From the NCBI GenBank assembly GCA_934086185.1, contig CAKOHW010000001.1:75966-107965 (forward strand): a stretch of DNA of 32,000 bases, in the 5' to 3' direction. Of the stretch, positions 19,755-25,438 are shown piece by piece (position 1 is the stretch's first letter; each line of letters begins with the position of its first letter). The notes under the pieces were generated by a model that saw only the letters and a list, made by a program, of their open reading frames with translations, did no database searches and was not told the origin of the DNA. The stretch is from an uncultured Bacilli bacterium (lineage in GTDB: Bacteria > Bacillota_I > Bacilli_A > RF39 > UBA660). Made by a program: the position numbers and the translations under genes.

Positions 19755-20888
19755 TTAGTAATTATACTTTCTCTCTAAATCTGTTTTTAAATTTGTATTA
19801 CTCATTTTTAAGTAACCTTTATAACTACCAGAACTTCTTAAATATTTTTCATAGTCATATAAATAAAGATTATCTAATTTTTTATTAATTCTTCTAATAG
19901 TTTTATTATTATACCTTATAAGCAATTTATTATTTTTATCAATTTTAAATACATAGCCTAAAAAACTAATGCCATTATTTAATTTATATATATTAGATTT
20001 AGCATTTGTAGATAGTTTTAATTCATTTATCTTTTTTTCTATTAATTTAAAATTTTCTTTTAATTTTTCTTTATCTGTATCTATAATTAATAAATCATCC
20101 ATATACCTAATATAATATTTATATTTTAATTCATCTTTAATAAAGTGATCTACATCATTTAAATAAAATATTGCTAGTATTTGACTTGTCATATTTCCTA
20201 TTGGTAAGCCTTTATTATATTCATATAATGGAATTTCATTAATTGTTTTTATTTTTTTAGTTTTTTCATTATCACTTATGTTTAGACTTTTTATATAATT
20301 TATTTTTTCTTTTTTTAGAAATTCTATTCTTTCATTAACATATTTTTCATTAGTAGAATTAATAATTATTTTTAATAGACTTAATGCTTTTTTATCTTTT
20401 ATATATTTTTTTATTTTTTTGAATATGATTTCGTGATCAATATTATAAAAGTATTTTTTTATATCAATTTTTAATATATATATATCTTTATTTAAATATT
20501 TTAATTTATTTATATATTCTATAAATTTTTTAAAAGCGTAACTACTTCCTTTATTAATTCTGGTTGCAACATTAGTATCAATTAATTTACTTTCAAGGCA
20601 TGGTAAAAGTATATATTTACTTACTAAGTGATTTACCAATTTATCAGGAATATTTTCACTCATTATTATTCTATATTTTGGATCTCTTATCATAAATATT
20701 CTATAATAACTAAATTTATACTCGCCTTTATAAAGTTTTGTTAAAATATTAAAAATGTTAGTGTTTAAATTCAATCTAAAATTATAAACTGCCTCTTTAT
20801 TTTTACAATTTCTTTTTATTTTATGAAACATATTTAAAGCATGTTCATAAACTAATATTTCATTATATATATTATCAATTCTTTTCAT
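19755..20888 (-). CDS. DGR-type reverse transcriptase
   Basis: RT motifs are RIIMSENIPDKLVNHLV, ILKIDIKKYFYNIDH, LPIGNMTSQILAIFYLN (the DGR-diagnostic IGxxxSQ in place of the group II intron motif) and YIRYMDDLLII (YMDD). There is no maturase or endonuclease domain. It lies next to the TR/VR pair. Confidence 0.9.
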   Translation of the reverse strand: MKRIDNIYNEILVYEHALNMFHKIKRNCKNKEAVYNFRLNLNTNIFNILTKLYKGEYKFSYYRIFMIRDPKYRIIMSENIPDKLVNHLVSKYILLPCLESKLIDTNVATRINKGSSYAFKKFIEYINKLKYLNKDIYILKIDIKKYFYNIDHEIIFKKIKKYIKDKKALSLLKIIINSTNEKYVNERIEFLKKEKINYIKSLNISDNEKTKKIKTINEIPLYEYNKGLPIGNMTSQILAIFYLNDVDHFIKDELKYKYYIRYMDDLLIIDTDKEKLKENFKLIEKKINELKLSTNAKSNIYKLNNGISFLGYVFKIDKNNKLLIRYNNKTIRRINKKLDNLYLYDYEKYLRSSGSYKGYLKMSNTNLKTDLERKYNY

Positions 20889-21222
20889 CTTTATAATCTA
20901 AACTATATATAATATTTCTAATTTCACCTAACATTTTTACGCATGATAAAAATCTTTTCTTTATTATTAATTTTTTTGTAAAAATCACTTCTAAATAAAA
21001 GTCTATCATCATAATATTTGATTTTATATCATTAATATATTTTTGTCTAATGTTTCCTTTATTAATACTAACTTTTGTAGTATTTTTTATCATTTCATAA
21101 TATTCGTCTATTATTTTTGTTCTTAATTGTTTTTCATTTTTAGGAAAAGATGGCACTATATATTGTTCAAAATATACTAGGAATGCTTTTTCTTTGCCTA
21201 ATACTATAAATTTATCATTCAT
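20875..21222 (-). CDS. avd: Avd-like accessory variability determinant (small helical bundle protein)
   Basis: 115 aa, basic, with a helical heptad-like pattern. It overlaps the RT start by 14 nt, the typical Avd position immediately 5' of the RT. The assignment rests on size, position and composition, not on a strong motif. Confidence 0.6.
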   Translation of the reverse strand: MNDKFIVLGKEKAFLVYFEQYIVPSFPKNEKQLRTKIIDEYYEMIKNTTKVSINKGNIRQKYINDIKSNIMMIDFYLEVIFTKKLIIKKRFLSCVKMLGEIRNIIYSLDYKDEKN

Positions 21223-21610: not shown

Positions 21611-21735
21611 AATTGCGGGACGGGCACCAATGTTGTTGTCATTGTTGACGTTGTTGTTGTTCAAGTTGCCATCATTGTTCACGTTGAACGCGTTGTCGTT
21701 GTTGTTGTTGAAGTTGGAGCGAGACAAAGACCAAT
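21611..21735 (-). repeat. DGR template repeat (TR), non-coding
   Basis: 125 nt, collinear with 22461-22585 (offset 850). 106 positions are identical. All 19 mismatches are T on the plus strand here, meaning A on the minus (sense) strand. In the VR frame it reads WSLSRSNFNNNNDNAFNVNNDGNLNNNNVNNDNNIGARPAI, with 18 AAY codons. The 76-aa plus-strand ORF 21528-21758 over it is spurious. Confidence 0.92.
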
Positions 21736-21835: not shown

Positions 21836-22210
21836 TTATTCCATTATTATTTGTTGAATTGATTTTATCAAATTCAACATTTCGTCACTTTTCATAATAT
21901 CCAAATCTTTTGACAAGATTAATTCATTTATTTTTTTTAATTTTGTTTTTTCATCAATATTATCTGGGATGATAATTTTATAATCGATGCTTTTTTGTTT
22001 TAATAATTCTTCATATTTTGCTATTGAATTTTTTGGAAAACCACATTTATCACAAAAATTTGAAAATTTGGTTAATCTAAAATCAAACATTTCATTCAGT
22101 AATATTGCATCACTATCTAATGCAATATAAAAGTTTCCACATTCAAATAGATATATCGTTGTTTCATTTTTTTCTTTTAAACTTAAATACTTATCATATA
22201 TTTTACTCAT
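21836..22210 (-). CDS. stand-alone MutS domain I (mismatch-binding domain)-like protein, DGR accessory candidate
   Basis: IYDKYLSLKEKNETTIYLFECGNFYIALDSDAILLNEMFDFRLTKF...CGFPKNSIAKYEELLKQKSIDYKII is collinear with the MutS N-terminus as I recall it (M..QYL.lK......lLfFR.GDFYE.F..DA......L.I.LT.R....PM.G.P......Y...L...G..V.I). The Phe of the F-x-E mismatch wedge is kept (NFY) and the Glu is replaced by Ile. It is only 124 aa, with no connector, clamp or ATPase domains. Confidence 0.7.
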   Translation of the reverse strand: MSKIYDKYLSLKEKNETTIYLFECGNFYIALDSDAILLNEMFDFRLTKFSNFCDKCGFPKNSIAKYEELLKQKSIDYKIIIPDNIDEKTKLKKINELILSKDLDIMKSDEMLNLIKSIQQIIME

Positions 22211-22220
22211 AAATATTTTA

Positions 22221-22252
22221 AACTTTTGTCTTCTTTAGTGAAGACAAAAGTT
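22221..22252. other. 13-bp perfect hairpin immediately 5' of the MutS-like ORF start
   Basis: aacttttgtcttc-tttagt-gaagacaaaagtt. On the minus strand it sits between an AAGGAG box (22256-22261) and the ATG at 22210, and is followed by tttaaaatattt. It could be an attenuator or terminator, or a structure that bridges the SD to the start codon. Confidence 0.5.
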
Positions 22253-22267
22253 ATTCTCCTTTAACAA

Positions 22268-22297
22268 ATTATATCACACTATCGTGCAATTTGTTAA
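22268..22297 (-). promoter_or_regulatory. candidate internal promoter for the MutS-like ORF/TR/avd/RT transcript
   Basis: Minus strand TTAACA-18 nt-TATAAT with a perfect extended -10 (TGaTATAAT, 22276-22268). It is embedded in a 10-bp AT inverted repeat (22261-22270 / 22288-22297). Confidence 0.4.
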
Positions 22298-22313: not shown

Positions 22314-22339
22314 GTCCTGTGGAAGGGTTTCCACAGGAC
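22314..22339. other. GC-containing 10-bp hairpin downstream of the DGR target gene
   Basis: gtcctgtgga-agggtt-tccacaggac. It is unusually GC-rich for this genome. The minus-strand side has no T-run, while the plus-strand side has tttt. Confidence 0.55.
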
Positions 22340-22365: not shown

Positions 22366-22383
22366 GTAGGACTAAAGTCCTAC
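22366..22383. other. 7-bp stem / 4-nt loop hairpin 2 nt after the target-gene stop
   Basis: gtaggac-taaa-gtcctac. It shares the gtcct/aggac core with the 22314-22339 hairpin. No T-run follows on the minus strand. Confidence 0.5.
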
Positions 22384-22385
22384 TA

Positions 22386-24260
22386 TTAACTCTCCGTTAC
22401 TTTATATGGATTTCCTATTGTTCCATCTCCACTTGCTATTTGTGCACCAGTGGCTAAAGTAACTGCGGGACGGGCACCAAAGTTGCTGTCATCGTAGACG
22501 CCGTCGTTGTTCAAGCTGCCATCATCGTTCACGCTGAACGCGAGGTCGTCGTAGTCGTCGAAGCGGGAGCGAGACAAAGACCAATAATATGATTGTGCAT
22601 TGTCATATAAATAATAGAATTTATTAGAATAACCAGCCTGTCCTCCTGCGTATGCTATTTCATCTGCTGTTAATGTTCCTATATAATCACTTATGCTGTC
22701 TTCTTCACTTGAACATTTTAATGTTGCGTTTCTTTCTACACCTTTTCCCCATAATCTTTTTCCTGCTGTGTAATAATAAGTTCCATAATCATTTTCTATC
22801 TGTGTTACTTCTGCGTCTGTTAATAACACTCCAGTTGATGAATTATATCTATAATTATCACTTCCACCTAAGCACCATTTTTCATTTTTTAATAATGATT
22901 TCTTATTTTCTAATCCACTTGATGTATACCATGCTTTTAATGTTGTATATAATCCTCCACTATAATTTTTATAATCTGCGTAATATTTGCTATTAATTGT
23001 TTTATAACCATATGCTATTGTTGCTCCATTATTTATTAAAGCTGATTTGGTATCTGATGATGTTATTGTACTACATAATCCTTCTTTGGCTAAGATTATT
23101 TTTATAGATCCATCGCCTTCAACACGTACTATTCTCCAACACATATTATTAAATTCTATGTAATTGTCTTTGACTCCACCTCTATAATAATAAGAGTCGC
23201 CATAATCATCAGTTGTTGCCGATAATGTTGCTTCTGTCGAATATGATACTGCTGACACTCTTTTTGCTTTCATTGTTATTGAACTTGTACTGCTTGCTGG
23301 TGCTGTTGTTACTTTATATATACTTGATAAATTTGTTGTTGTTTTTTGAGTATTTGTACTTGCTGAATTACTACTTGCACTTGTTGATACTATATATTTT
23401 CCTACCAATGTTGTATTACATGTTCCATCATTGTATTTACATGTTGTAACTCCTGTTAATGTGAATTTACCAGTACTTTCATCTATTGTATACCCTGTTC
23501 CATATGTCCAGTAATATCCTTGATATGTTGTTGTTATGCTTACTGAACTTTCGCTTGTTGCTTCATCTACTTGATCAGTATAATATTTATAACTTACTGC
23601 TTGTGCAGGTGTTGTTAATGGAGTTGCACTAAATGTTGTTCCATTTTTTGCTAATTTTGCATTGTTTATTATTGCATATGATAATGATGTTTGTTCATAT
23701 GGCATGAATTCTCCATTACTGTTTTTACCAAATATTTGTAATTTTGCTTGTAATACTTTTCCCATATCTACACTTTGATCTGTATTTGTATCTTTATATG
23801 TAAATTTAAATGTGTATGTATGAGTTTTTTTAGGTTCTATTTCATTTGTTATTAATTGTTTTATTCCATTTGGAAATGTTGTTTCTGTTGTTACTTCATT
23901 ACATGCTATTGTTCCATCTGTTGTGCAATTTAATGTATATTTAACATCATCTACTCTTTCAAATGTATTTATTACATCTATTAAATATACTCCATATTCT
24001 ACATTTGCATTTCCTTCGTTTTTTACTGTGAATGTTTTAGTATATACTGTATCACTTGGTAATAAGTTTTCTCCTCCAATTACTCCATCACTTCCATCGC
24101 CATATACTAATTTTAAATCTGCTGTTGTTACACTGATGCTCTTATCGTTAGTGTTTCCTTGTATTCTTGTTAAAAAGTATGCATATGTTAATCCTAACAA
24201 TGCTAATAATACTATTGTTATTCCTACTACACTAACTATGATTTTTTGTTTTCTATTCAT
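22386..24260 (-). CDS. secreted DGR target protein: SipW/TasA-type signal and N-domain, Thr/Ser-rich linker, C-terminal lectin-like VR domain
   Basis: The likely start is ATG 24260 (MNRKQK) with an aggagg SD; the track extends it to 24293. The signal region IVLLALLGLTYAYFLT resembles the SipW-dependent (TasA/camelysin-type) signal motif ..GTYAYF.. as I recall it. The middle holds S/T-rich tracts (STSASSNSASTNTQKTTTN, APASSTSS). At the C-terminus, ..LTADEIAYAGG...YYWSLS...GARPAV resembles the DUF1566/C-type-lectin-fold ends used by DGR targets. The VR is followed by a 24-aa tail (TLATGAQIASGDGTIGNPYKVTES). Confidence 0.85.
   Translation of the reverse strand: MNRKQKIIVSVVGITIVLLALLGLTYAYFLTRIQGNTNDKSISVTTADLKLVYGDGSDGVIGGENLLPSDTVYTKTFTVKNEGNANVEYGVYLIDVINTFERVDDVKYTLNCTTDGTIACNEVTTETTFPNGIKQLITNEIEPKKTHTYTFKFTYKDTNTDQSVDMGKVLQAKLQIFGKNSNGEFMPYEQTSLSYAIINNAKLAKNGTTFSATPLTTPAQAVSYKYYTDQVDEATSESSVSITTTYQGYYWTYGTGYTIDESTGKFTLTGVTTCKYNDGTCNTTLVGKYIVSTSASSNSASTNTQKTTTNLSSIYKVTTAPASSTSSITMKAKRVSAVSYSTEATLSATTDDYGDSYYYRGGVKDNYIEFNNMCWRIVRVEGDGSIKIILAKEGLCSTITSSDTKSALINNGATIAYGYKTINSKYYADYKNYSGGLYTTLKAWYTSSGLENKKSLLKNEKWCLGGSDNYRYNSSTGVLLTDAEVTQIENDYGTYYYTAGKRLWGKGVERNATLKCSSEEDSISDYIGTLTADEIAYAGGQAGYSNKFYYLYDNAQSYYWSLSRSRFDDYDDLAFSVNDDGSLNNDGVYDDSNFGARPAVTLATGAQIASGDGTIGNPYKVTES
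22461..22585 (-). repeat. DGR variable repeat (VR) inside the 3' end of the target gene
   Basis: Encodes WSLSRSRFDDYDDLAFSVNDDGSLNNDGVYDDSNFGARPAV. It differs from the TR only at TR-adenine positions: 13 A>G, 4 A>T and 2 A>C on the sense strand. The 3' end carries a GC-rich IMH-like tract, GGTGCCCGTCCCGC, identical in TR and VR. Homology stops abruptly at both ends. Confidence 0.92.
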
Positions 24261-24319
24261 ATTAACTCCTCCTAAAAAATAAAATACCAACAACTTCGTG
24301 TATTGTATTTTCTAAAATA

Positions 24320-24589: not shown

Positions 24590-24805
24590 CTATCTTTGAC
24601 GATTAACTAGAAGTAAAGCTGGGTCTATTTTTAAACCTTTTGCAATTTTTTCTACTGTGTCAATTGTCACTTTTCTGTCAGTTCTTTCAATATCTCCAAT
24701 ATAGTTTGCACTCATCCCTGATAATTCGGCTAATCTTTCTTGAGAGATATTTAATTGTCTTCTATAATATTTCACATTTTCTTTAAATACTTGTCTTAAA
24801 GTCAT
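24590..24805 (-). CDS. XRE-family helix-turn-helix transcriptional regulator
   Basis: LNISQERLAELSGMSANYIGDIERTDRKVTIDTVEKIAKGLKIDPALLL is a classic Cro/C1-type HTH. The ATG at 24805 (MTLRQ) has GGAGG 10 nt upstream, whereas the track start at 24814 is too close to the SD. Confidence 0.8.
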   Translation of the reverse strand: MTLRQVFKENVKYYRRQLNISQERLAELSGMSANYIGDIERTDRKVTIDTVEKIAKGLKIDPALLLVNRQR

Positions 24806-24862
24806 TTTAACCATACCTCCATCTCATTAATATTATGGTATGATTTTTTTGAAATTATAACA

Positions 24863-25361: not shown

Positions 25362-25438
25362 TGGTGTCCTCGGAGCGACTCGAACGCTCGACCGTACGCT
25401 TAGAAGGCGTATGCTCTATCCAGCTGAGCTACGAAGAC
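25362..25438 (-). tRNA. tRNA-Arg (anticodon TCT), CCA encoded
   Basis: The reverse complement GTCTTCGTAGCTCAGCTGGATAGAGCATACGCCTTCTAAGCGTACGGTCGAGCGTTCGAGTCGCTCCGAGGACACCA folds as a cloverleaf. Acceptor stem GTCTTCG/CGAGGAC, D-arm GCTC/GAGC, anticodon stem TACGC/GCGTA with loop CTTCTAA, T-arm GAGCG-TTCGAGT-CGCTC. Confidence 0.95.

What the first reader, a model, noticed from the sequence alone, without database searches (positions are those of the whole stretch)
21836..22210. Stand-alone MutS mismatch-binding-domain (domain I) homolog encoded between VR and TR
The 124-aa ORF aligns along its first ~85 residues with the N-terminal mismatch-recognition domain of MutS. Shared blocks are YL.LK, the GNFY block at the position of GDFYE, DA, the LTK(F) block at the position of LT.R, and CG.P at the position of M.G.P. 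It lacks every other MutS domain (connector, core, clamp, ATPase).

The wedge Phe of the F-x-E motif is conserved, but the Glu that contacts the mismatched base is Ile.

A DGR creates A:N mismatches when mutagenised cDNA replaces the VR, so a mismatch-binding module inside the cassette is mechanistically suggestive. It could shield heteroduplex intermediates from host MutS/MutL, recruit the cDNA to its target, or bias repair toward the cDNA strand.

I have a vague recollection that large DGR surveys listed a MutS-like accessory ORF class. I know of no functional study, and I cannot verify either point from here.

The ORF has no SD within 15 nt of its ATG. Instead an AAGGAG box is separated from the ATG by a perfect 13-bp hairpin.
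Basis: partly seen in the sequence, partly recalled or inferred. Interest (0 to 1): 0.85.

Follow-up and report, generated by a model that had tools for sequence, protein, structure and literature searches.

The report
MutS-like (MSL) accessory gene of DGR
A small gene inside a diversity-generating retroelement encodes only the mismatch-sensing head, plus a worn-down copy of the assembly tail, of the repair protein MutS. This gene class (MSL) was catalogued in 2017 but has not been tested in any paper I found, and it most likely stops mismatch repair from erasing the element's deliberate mutations.

Summary
The ORF at 21836-22210 (minus strand, 124 aa) matches Pfam MutS_I (E 2.4e-11). Its predicted structure overlays MutS domain I at 1.4-2.0 Å. 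It lies between the VR and TR of a genuine DGR, where 19 of 19 TR/VR differences fall on TR adenines.

It is not a new kind of gene. Wu et al. 2018 (PMC5758913) defined this accessory class as MSL ("MutS-like", Architecture D). Bacteroides DGRs also carry it. I found no functional study.

Three points go beyond the finding:
- The family is large: 230 clusters at 50% identity with E≤1e-10, and the best 150 are all short proteins.
- It is tightly linked to DGRs. A DGR-type RT lies within 0.3-4.2 kb in 60 of 62 distinct loci.
- The wedge Phe is kept in 341 of 343 members, and the Glu38 position is never Glu.

The tail of MSL proteins is homologous to the MutS C-terminal oligomerisation domain (38 bits, p 4e-14 against Bacteroides MutS). 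MSL is therefore a "mini-MutS", head plus tail. In this window's subfamily the tail is degenerate.

The most likely role is a signalling-dead mismatch binder that shields the cDNA:VR heteroduplex from host MutS. This is inferred, not shown.

The parts
21836..22210 (-). MSL gene (MutS-like DGR accessory protein, 124 aa). Residues ~1-80 are the MutS domain I fold, with wedge Phe27 and with Ile29 at the Glu38 position. Residues ~87-123 form two helices, a degenerate copy of the MutS C-terminal domain.
22221..22252 (-). Perfect 13-bp hairpin with a 6-nt loop, ending 10 nt before the MSL ATG. The equivalent position in 8 homologous loci also holds a 10-13 bp hairpin, with at least 5 different stem sequences.
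22256..22261 (-). AAGGAG box 45 nt upstream of the ATG. It lies at about the predicted transcript 5' end. Homologs carry only a purine-rich stretch here (GGAAG, GGAAA, GAAAGAG, GGGAA).
22268..22297 (-). Best sigma-70-like promoter match in the 5.3-kb DGR region: TTAACA, 18 nt, TG-TATAAT (11 of 12). It would start an MSL-TR(-avd-RT) transcript at about 22261.
   Evidence: consensus match only
22314..22339 (-). 11-bp hairpin with loop ACCC between the target stop codon and MSL. The loop and upper stem are conserved and the lower stem covaries across 8 loci.
22386..24293 (-). DGR target gene (635 aa) with an N-terminal signal/TM segment and a weak camelysin/TasA-like match. The VR lies at its 3' end.
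22461..22585 (-). Variable region (VR)
21611..21735 (-). Template region (TR). It is 85% identical to the VR, and all 19 differences are at TR adenines. The GC-rich 3' block TTGGTGCCCGTCCCGCA is shared with the VR.
20875..21222 (-). avd (115 aa), overlapping the RT start by 14 nt
   Evidence: NF033474, E 2.6e-6, below its cut-off; orthologs carry PF22296 bAvd
19755..20888 (-). DGR reverse transcriptase (377 aa) containing IGNMTSQ
24590..24814 (-). Cro/C1-type HTH gene upstream of the target. An HTH gene accompanies MSL in both architectures seen, so it may be a regulator of the cassette.
   Evidence: association only

Best explanation
Identity (confidence about 0.95): this is a member of the MSL (MutS-like) class of DGR accessory genes.

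The cassette reads target/VR, MSL, TR, avd, RT on the minus strand. This matches the class defined by Wu et al. 2018 as Architecture D.

At family level the protein is a 'mini-MutS'. The mismatch-recognition domain I is joined by a short variable linker directly to the MutS C-terminal helix-loop-helix oligomerisation domain. Residues ~90-825 of MutS are missing: connector, lever/core, clamp and ATPase.

Mechanism (inferred, confidence about 0.4):
- During mutagenic retrohoming the adenine-mutagenised cDNA pairs with the parental VR and creates a dense run of mismatches.
- MSL binds this heteroduplex through the conserved Phe wedge, probably as a dimer or higher oligomer.
- It has no ATPase and none of the MutS domains II-V, so by established MutS mechanism (my inference) it cannot form the sliding clamp that licenses repair.
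- It would therefore occupy the mismatches without signalling, and hold off host MutS until replication fixes the new VR sequence.

Shown here: fold, motifs, domain composition, genomic linkage to DGRs.

Inferred: DNA binding, oligomerisation, antagonism of mismatch repair.
For: Identity:
- Pfam MutS_I at E 2.4e-11.
- Predicted structure on MutS domain I at 1.4-2.0 Å. A phage-type member gives the same fold.
- The class is described in PMC5758913 and, for Bacteroides, in 10.1101/2024.11.15.621889.

Selection:
- 1077 representatives (clusters at 50% identity) match at E≤1e-3 and 230 at E≤1e-10. The best 150 are all 61-237 aa and most align over their whole length.
- G25, F27 and D34 are invariant in 99 diverse members.

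Linkage:
- target-MSL-TR-avd-RT synteny holds in the Bacilli subfamily.
- 60 of 62 distinct loci have a DGR-type RT within 0.3-4.2 kb.

Binder without signalling:
- The wedge Phe is present in 341 of 343 members. The Glu38 position is I/N/L/V/Y/T/C and never Glu.
- E38A, E38Q and E38T MutS were still crystallised on a G·T mismatch, according to the PDB titles.
- Glu38 is listed among the residues that couple DNA binding to the ATPase (PMC3848065).

Tail:
- A profile of MSL tails alone finds E. coli MutS C-terminal-domain entries as the top 5 of 177,635 PDB sequences (best E 0.0035).
- The same profile scores 38.4 bits (p 4e-14) on residues 830-859 of the 862-aa Bacteroides finegoldii MutS.
- The isolated E. 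coli CTD oligomerises by itself (PMC1636413).

Mismatch repair opposes DGRs:
- Deleting mutS raises Bacteroides retrohoming 5-10 fold in an all-or-nothing manner.
- Engineered DGRs use dominant-negative MutL for the same purpose.
Against: - The literature search found no experiment on any MSL.
- Most DGRs lack MSL (356 of 372 in PMC5758913), although mismatch repair is widespread. The BPP-1 phage DGR does not need MutS.
- E38Q is reported to abolish discrimination between matched and mismatched DNA (PMC3848065). A Glu-less domain may therefore bind DNA without mismatch specificity.
- In MutS most DNA contacts come from the clamp domain (own knowledge), so a lone domain I may bind weakly.
- The window protein is acidic (pI 5.3, net charge about -2).
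- In the window's subfamily the tail has lost the T-P and Ala signature. It is recognised only by profile-profile comparison (P 5e-5, probability 67%) and not on its own. Oligomerisation is therefore uncertain for this particular protein.
- I could not determine whether this host has mutS or mutL.
- Two loci have MSL with no RT nearby (L014, L022).
Confidence: 0.4

Rival explanations
1. Poison or adaptor subunit. MSL acts on the host MutS protein rather than on DNA. Its MutS-type C-terminal domain would co-assemble with the C-terminal domain of host MutS. This would either disturb MutS tetramers (a dominant-negative effect) or tether an extra mismatch head to them, altering mismatch repair or anti-recombination around the VR.
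For: The canonical MSL tail is nearly the same motif as a real MutS C-terminus: [23 protein letters not shown] against [23 protein letters not shown] (38.4 bits). It aligns with E. coli 828-852. That stretch contains D835 and P839, the positions mutated in the 'D835R' and 'P839E dimer mutant' structures (titles; PMC1636413). According to the abstract of PMC1636413, the CTD is critical for MutS function in mismatch repair and anti-recombination.
Against: The tail is poorly conserved across MSL subfamilies. [TS]P-type tails make up about 43 of 99, S[VI]-type 16 and others 40. The phage type has T-F and the window has K-S, which argues against one fixed host partner. Domain I with its invariant Phe is the best-conserved part, and a pure MutS-binding protein would not need it. 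No interaction data exist.
Confidence: 0.15
2. Positive homing factor. MSL recognises a distorted DNA structure at the target and promotes cDNA integration, or biases resolution towards the cDNA strand, rather than blocking repair. The structure could be the cDNA:VR heteroduplex, a D-loop, or a hairpin/cruciform near the VR.
For: MSL is placed directly next to the VR in this subfamily. The VR-MSL spacer carries conserved, covarying hairpins. From my own knowledge, the BPP-1 DGR needs a hairpin/cruciform downstream of its VR. MSL always comes with avd and RT.
Against: In the phage-type subfamily MSL sits 2.2-4.2 kb from the RT on the other strand, beyond the lysis genes, so proximity to the VR is not general. 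Most DGRs home without MSL. There is no nuclease, ligase or recombinase motif.
Confidence: 0.2
3. A role not specific to DGR chemistry. One example is a small DNA-binding partner of the adjacent HTH regulator, controlling expression of the cassette or prophage. Another is a general phage anti-repair or anti-recombination factor that happens to travel with DGR-bearing elements.
For: An HTH gene accompanies MSL in both architectures. In the phage type it overlaps the MSL start by 4 nt. In the window and in L005 an HTH gene lies upstream of the target. Two loci have MSL without an RT (L014, L022). Small 'MutS domain I' proteins are present in phage and giant-virus proteomes.
Against: 60 of 62 loci have a DGR RT next door, across three different architectures. 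Wu et al. also found the gene through DGRs. Conservation is centred on the mismatch-wedge motif.
Confidence: 0.1
4. Non-functional remnant of a mutS gene, such as an N-terminal fragment left by a deletion.
For: It contains only pieces of MutS.
Against: There are hundreds of diverged clusters of the same length and the same head-plus-tail design. The start (MSK[LI]Y) and core residues are conserved, and the gene is present in several cassette architectures. The ORF is intact even in cassettes whose RT is truncated.
Confidence: 0.02

Closest known systems
MSL (MutS-like) accessory proteins of DGRs, Architecture D (Wu et al. 2018, PMC5758913); Msl of the Bacteroides Bfr, Bth and Bun DGRs (10.1101/2024.11.15.621889)
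   Same: A small protein with MutS domain I homology, encoded in a DGR that also has avd and has no HRDC gene. The size lies within the published 112-283 aa range.
   Different: This is a distinct Bacilli subfamily, no closer than about 54% identical to anything in the GTDB species genomes scanned. It is more acidic (pI 5.3 against the published 7.2±1.7). Its C-terminal motif is degenerate. Neither of the two papers read that describe MSL/Msl mentions the MutS C-terminal-domain homology or the systematic loss of Glu38.
MutS domain I (PF01624), the mismatch-recognition domain of bacterial MutS, MSH6 and MSH3
   Same: Same fold (rmsd 1.4-2.0 Å), the same G-x-F-Y wedge hairpin, and the same D-A, L-T-K and G-F/I-P blocks.
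   Different: MSL has no connector, core, clamp or ATPase domain. The Glu of F-x-E is replaced by Ile here and is never Glu in 343 relatives. It is therefore not a mismatch-repair MutS.
MutS C-terminal tetramerisation domain (E. coli residues 801-853; PDB 2OK2 and 3ZLJ chain C; PMC1636413)
   Same: The family tail motif [IL]D.n.LTP.eAl..L..LK matches E. coli LDPDSLTPRQALEWIYRLK and Bacteroides [20 protein letters not shown] at the extreme C-terminus. It is predicted as helix-loop-helix.
   Different: In the window protein the motif reads KDLDIMKSDEMLNLIKSIQ, with T-P and Ala lost. No β-clamp-binding QLSFF-type motif precedes it. Oligomerisation is untested.
Dominant-negative MutL E32K and mutS deletion, as used in engineered DGR and retron editing
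   Same: If the shielding model is right, the purpose is the same: stop mismatch repair from undoing RT-templated edits.
   Different: Those are artificial and act on the whole genome. MSL would be a natural, element-encoded and possibly local solution. No homology to MutL.
Other DGR accessory proteins: Avd and HRDC
   Same: Small non-enzymatic accessory proteins of DGR cassettes.
   Different: Unrelated folds. Avd is basic and works with the RT. MSL co-occurs with Avd and was not found together with HRDC.

Membership tests
DGR accessory class MSL (Wu et al. 2018) | Small protein (112-283 aa) with detectable MutS homology | tested here: met
   124 aa. Pfam MutS_I E 2.4e-11, above the gathering score. 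Foldseek hits to MutS domain I.
DGR accessory class MSL (Wu et al. 2018) | Encoded within or next to a DGR cassette | tested here: met
   The gene lies between VR and TR. Relatives are linked to an RT in 60 of 62 loci.
DGR accessory class MSL (Wu et al. 2018) | Co-occurs with avd and not with HRDC | tested here: met
   avd lies at 20875-21222 (orthologs carry PF22296). No HRDC domain was found in the four cassette proteins.
DGR accessory class MSL (Wu et al. 2018) | Near-neutral charge (pI 7.2±1.7) | tested here: inconclusive
   Window protein pI 5.3. The median of 99 relatives is 7.7, with a range of 4.5-9.7.
Diversity-generating retroelement | TR/VR repeat pair whose differences are confined to TR adenines | tested here: met
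   19 of 19 differences fall on TR adenines across 125 nt. There is only one VR in the window.
Diversity-generating retroelement | DGR-type reverse transcriptase adjacent to the TR | tested here: met
   RVT_1 E 3.9e-17. The sequence contains IGNMTSQ (that this motif marks DGR RTs is from my own knowledge). It is 71-73% identical to RTs of syntenic cassettes.
MutS mismatch-repair ATPase (MutS1) | ABC ATPase domain V plus the core and clamp domains | tested here: not met
   Only domain I of Pfam and NCBIfam models matches. The protein is 124 aa long.
MutS mismatch-repair ATPase (MutS1) | Phe-x-Glu mismatch motif | tested here: not met
   Phe is present and Glu is replaced by Ile. Glu is absent in 343 of 343 relatives.
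MutS C-terminal oligomerisation domain | C-terminal helix-loop-helix with the LD..LTP..AL..L..LK signature | tested here: inconclusive
   The feature is met for the MSL family. For the window protein the evidence is limited to profile-profile support (P 5e-5), a predicted two-helix tail and a retained D-L-D. Single-sequence scoring is not significant.
MutS C-terminal oligomerisation domain | Forms dimers or tetramers | not testable with these tools
   This needs SEC-MALS or AUC, or a multimer structure prediction.

The most novel reading that the evidence does not exclude
MSL proteins are natural 'mini-MutS' inhibitors of mismatch repair. They would consist of a signalling-dead mismatch head (Phe kept, Glu lost) fused directly to the MutS oligomerisation tail. 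The retroelement would carry this gene to protect its mismatch-dense cDNA:VR heteroduplex. It could do so by coating the mismatches as an oligomer or by plugging into host MutS through tail-tail contacts. If so, this would be, to my knowledge, a previously undescribed kind of mobile-element-encoded factor built from pieces of MutS itself. It would also be a ready-made part for DGR and retron genome-editing tools.
Probability: 0.35. Interest if true: 0.7.

Novelty: new member of a known kind. Interest (0 to 1): 0.38.

Why it matters
How DGRs get dozens of simultaneous mismatches past mismatch repair is an open question. Recent work shows that host MutS cuts Bacteroides retrohoming 5-10 fold, all-or-nothing, and engineers now disable mismatch repair to make DGRs work in E. 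coli.

MSL is the obvious natural candidate for this job, yet I found no published test of it. This window adds a clean chromosomal example from a spore-forming, very AT-rich gut Bacillota.

The family analysis gives concrete handles for experiments:
- an invariant wedge Phe;
- a Glu that is always missing;
- a tail that is a copy of the MutS oligomerisation domain.

If the shielding model holds, MSL could replace genome-wide inactivation of mismatch repair in DGR- and retron-based editing.

Tried and rejected
- RavZ similarity. A phmmer search of PDB gave Legionella RavZ at E 1.6e-5. The hit is absent from the family profile search and from the Foldseek hits, so I treat it as chance or composition.
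- Narrow subfamily profile (A2) against PDB gave no hit. The 99-member profile was needed.
- The window subfamily is absent from IMG/VR. Neither the window protein nor the phage-type P0315 has a tblastn match in GenBank phages.
- The only plasmid-collection hit was a full-length Bacteroides MutS. I then used it as an independent test sequence for the tail.
- No dedicated PHROG family exists, only a full-length MutS-like phrog. There is no PADLOC defence family.
- Foldseek cannot address the tail, because domain I dominates all hits for both models.
- Scoring the window tail alone with the canonical tail profile is not significant and falls out of register.
- No β-clamp-binding motif is present in the linker.
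- The supplements of Wu et al. are not held, so their MSL list could not be compared.
- MAFFT mis-aligned the fourth hairpin, so its covariation was judged from individual folds.
- I considered the hairpin as a bridge bringing AAGGAG close to the ATG. I rejected this because AAGGAG is not conserved and some homologs have their own GGAG after the hairpin.
- I considered the hairpin as an intrinsic terminator on the sense strand. I rejected this because no U-tract follows it.

Full report
**1. The observation**

The ORF at 21836..22210 on the minus strand (ATG start, 124 aa) is as described.

- It scores 44.3 bits (E 2.4e-11) on Pfam MutS_I, above the gathering score of 20.6. Residues 6-94 align with profile positions 5-95 of 113.
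- NCBIfam's full-length MutS models match only through their first ~95 positions.
- An AlphaFold2 model built on 32 homologs has mean pLDDT 90.7. It shows a β-α-β core (residues 1-80) followed by two helices at 87-99 and 108-123.
- The top 50 Foldseek hits in the PDB are all domain I of E. coli or Taq MutS, MSH3 or MSH6, with rmsd 1.4-2.0 Å over about 80 residues.

**2. The setting is a genuine DGR**

- On the minus strand the order is: target gene (22386-24293), MSL, TR (21611-21735), avd (20875-21222), RT (19755-20888).
- TR and VR (22461-22585) are 85% identical. All 19 differences lie at TR adenines.
- The GC-rich 3' block of the repeat occurs only twice in the window, so there is one VR.
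- The neighbours are chromosomal: PolC, SpoIIP, YqfD, ThyX, RNase HIII-like. The window has 22.8% G+C.
- The exact protein is found on contigs of up to 327 kb.
- Relatives come from uncultured gut Bacilli MAGs. The subfamily is absent from IMG/VR. This is therefore a chromosomal DGR of a spore-forming gut Bacillota, not a phage DGR.

**3. It is already a named class**

- Wu et al. 2018 (PMC5758913) describe four accessory gene classes of DGRs. One of them is MSL ("MutS-like"): 16 of 372 DGRs, 112-283 aa, pI 7.2±1.7, always with avd, never with HRDC, forming "Architecture D".
- Macadangdang et al. (10.1101/2024.11.15.621889) note Msl in three Bacteroides DGRs.
- A 2021 review lists it.
- A 2026 preprint cites these homologs as the reason for suppressing mismatch repair in an engineered DGR.
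- None of the papers found reports a functional test.

**4. Family size and selection**

- A word-seeded search returned 132 close relatives, the 120 listed being 50-98% identical; most are 117-139 aa (some are shorter fragments) and all listed carry PF01624.
- An exhaustive profile search of 1.84 billion representatives gave 1077 hits at E≤1e-3 and 230 at E≤1e-10. The best 150 are all 61-237 aa and most align over the full length.
- In 99 diverse members, G25, F27 and D34 are invariant.
- The family therefore consists of independent small genes under selection, not of mutS fragments.

**5. Linkage to DGRs**

- In the Bacilli subfamily the order target-MSL-(TR)-avd-RT is conserved. Some loci have passenger insertions between MSL and avd.
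- A second subfamily places MSL directly upstream of and overlapping avd-RT (L017, L023, L024).
- A third, phage-borne subfamily has 68 IMG/VR loci. MSL sits beside an HTH gene at the prophage end. It is 2.2-4.2 kb from the RT, on the opposite strand and beyond the lysis genes. The RT lies next to a tail-fibre gene.
- Counting each distinct MSL DNA sequence once, 60 of 62 loci with enough flank have a DGR-type RT within 0.3-4.2 kb.
- The two exceptions are L014 and L022, a Clostridia prophage.
- The loci are not phylogenetically independent. Even so, three different architectures and a near-total association exclude chance.

**6. The mismatch motif**

- The family profile aligns GiFYi with E. 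coli GDFYE.
- In 343 family members the wedge Phe is present in 341. The Glu38 position is I (225), N (78), L (25), V (10), Y (3), T (1) or C (1), and never Glu.
- According to the review PMC3848065, Phe36 stacks on the mismatched base. Glu38 hydrogen-bonds to that base and is among the residues that couple DNA binding to the ATPase. E38Q loses mismatch discrimination.
- E38A, E38Q and E38T MutS were nevertheless crystallised on a G·T mismatch (titles).
- The pattern fits a protein that inserts the wedge but has nothing to signal to. It also warns that mismatch specificity may be weak.

**7. A point the finding missed: the tail**

- The 99-member profile matched E. coli MutS twice. The head matched residues 13-96 (E 2.8e-9) and, weakly, the tail matched residues 816-851.
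- A profile made from the tails alone (56 sequences) was searched against all 177,635 distinct PDB sequences. The top five hits were all E. coli MutS C-terminal-domain entries: 2OK2 (MBP-CTD fusion, E 0.0035), 3ZLJ chain C (the 53-residue CTD, E 0.016) and full-length MutS.
- A Bacteroides finegoldii MutS turned up by chance in the plasmid search and served as an independent test sequence. The tail profile scores 38.4 bits (p 4e-14) on residues 830-859 of 862: [30 protein letters not shown] against the consensus [30 protein letters not shown].
- This region is the MutS tetramerisation domain. The isolated CTD oligomerises, and D835R reduces tetramers to dimers (PMC1636413). The conserved T-P aligns with T838-P839, and P839E is the "dimer mutant" of PDB 6I5F.
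- MSL is therefore MutS with residues ~90-825 removed: head plus oligomerisation tail. I found no mention of this in the papers that describe MSL.

*Caveat for this window.* Its subfamily has a degenerate tail, KDLDIMKSDEMLNLIKSIQ.
- It keeps the D-x-D but has lost T-P and Ala.
- It is linked to the canonical tails by profile-profile comparison (P 5e-5, probability 67%, in register).
- One subfamily member with an L-S-V type tail bridges the two groups.
- It is not recognised by single-sequence scoring.

**8. Mechanism**

*Best-supported reading (inferred).* An oligomeric, signalling-dead mismatch binder occupies the adenine-derived mismatches of the cDNA:VR heteroduplex. It keeps host MutS off until replication fixes the change.

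Supporting context:
- Host MutS lowers Bacteroides retrohoming 5-10 fold in an all-or-nothing way.
- Engineered systems remove mutS or poison MutL.

Evidence against:
- Most DGRs lack MSL, and BPP-1 does not need MutS.
- The Glu-less domain may not discriminate mismatches.
- The window protein is acidic (pI 5.3).
- The host's mismatch-repair status is unknown.

Rivals:
- Docking onto host MutS through the tail.
- A positive role in cDNA integration or structure recognition.
- A function tied to the neighbouring HTH regulator rather than to DGR chemistry.
- Gene decay, which the family-wide conservation effectively excludes.

**9. The SD/hairpin remark**

- The 13-bp hairpin at 22221-22252 is real and unusually stable (z -5.4).
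- All eight homologous loci examined have a 10-13 bp hairpin ending roughly 10-19 nt before the MSL ATG, with at least five unrelated stem sequences.
- The AAGGAG box is not conserved as an SD. Homologs show only purine-rich stretches there, and some have their own GGAG after the hairpin.
- The best promoter-like site of the region (TTAACA, 18 nt, TG-TATAAT; 22297-22268) would start the transcript at about 22261. That would put AAGGAG and the hairpin at the very 5' end of an MSL-TR RNA.
- My preferred reading, from my own knowledge of Bacillus 5' stem-loops and the cryIIIA STAB-SD, is a 5' RNA stabiliser for the DGR transcript rather than a bridged ribosome-binding site. This is untested.

**10. 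Verdict**

- The element belongs to a known but functionally unexplored class, so the finding itself is of moderate interest.
- The added value here is threefold: the head-plus-tail "mini-MutS" architecture, the family-wide Phe-kept/Glu-lost rule, and the quantified DGR linkage. Together these make the anti-mismatch-repair hypothesis directly testable.

Noticed in passing
window 22314-22339 (also L001, L005, L009-L013, L015): An 11-bp hairpin about 45 nt after the target stop codon. The ACCC loop and the GAAA/TTTC upper stem are conserved, and the lower stem covaries: 8 of its 12 pairs show compensatory changes in 8 loci. A T-run follows it on the antisense (+) strand only. It could be an antisense terminator or a DGR target-site hairpin/cruciform. 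Unresolved.
   Followed up: partly
window 22366-22383 and about 22275-22287: Two more hairpins are conserved in position in the target-MSL spacer. One lies right after the stop codon (GTAGGAC-TTTA-GTCCTAC) and has different stems in homologs. The other is a short tetraloop hairpin (GATA here; GTAA or GAAA in homologs) inside the spacer of the predicted promoter.
   Followed up: partly
window 24590-24814 (-); L005 5289-5519; L018 5771-6004: A Cro/C1-type HTH gene travels with MSL in both architectures. It lies upstream of the target gene in the Bacilli type. In the phage type it overlaps the MSL start codon by 4 nt. It may be a regulator of DGR activity.
   Followed up: no
window 22386-24293 (-); L014 4525-5986: The DGR target has an N-terminal signal/TM segment with a weak camelysin/TasA-like match (Peptidase_M73, E 0.0012, below threshold). 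In L014 a 243-aa protein with the same N-terminus is followed by a signal-peptidase-like ORF and an intact MSL gene, with no RT, avd or VR domain. This looks like an orphan MSL.
   Followed up: partly
L001-L004 (for example L001 9238-11372): The RT gene is cut off at about residue 130 and is followed by a 511-aa serine recombinase (Resolvase/Recombinase/Zn_ribbon_recom). This is a decayed or interrupted DGR that still keeps intact MSL and avd, and it is seen in many Hadza gut samples.
   Followed up: partly
L010 7249-8139: A 296-aa ORF of unknown function is inserted between MSL and avd. L009, L011 and L012 likewise have 2.3-3.8 kb between MSL and avd.
   Followed up: no
L018-L021, L025-L092 (IMG/VR): The phage-type MSL subfamily sits at the prophage end, between the lysis genes and the integrase. 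It is on the opposite strand to the DGR RT, which lies next to a tail-fibre gene. Its tail motif is T-F rather than T-P, and the Glu38 position is Asn. There is no dedicated PHROG family for it.
   Followed up: partly
window 25365-25438 (-): A tRNA gene (Rfam RF00005, 64.6 bits) lies about 1.1 kb upstream of the DGR target gene. Between them are the HTH gene and an 87-aa ORF. I did not check whether the cassette is an insertion next to the tRNA.
   Followed up: no
window 21836-22210 (protein residues 12-90): A phmmer search of PDB gives Legionella RavZ at E 1.6e-5, and Pfam RavZ_cat at E 0.066. The hit is not seen with the family profile or in the fold search, so it is probably chance or composition.
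   Followed up: yes
L093 (NZ_OY725927.1, 'plasmid 25' of Bacteroides finegoldii): This record is labelled as a plasmid, but the stretch examined carries housekeeping genes (mutS, lgt, ychF). It may be a mislabelled chromosome fragment.
   Followed up: no
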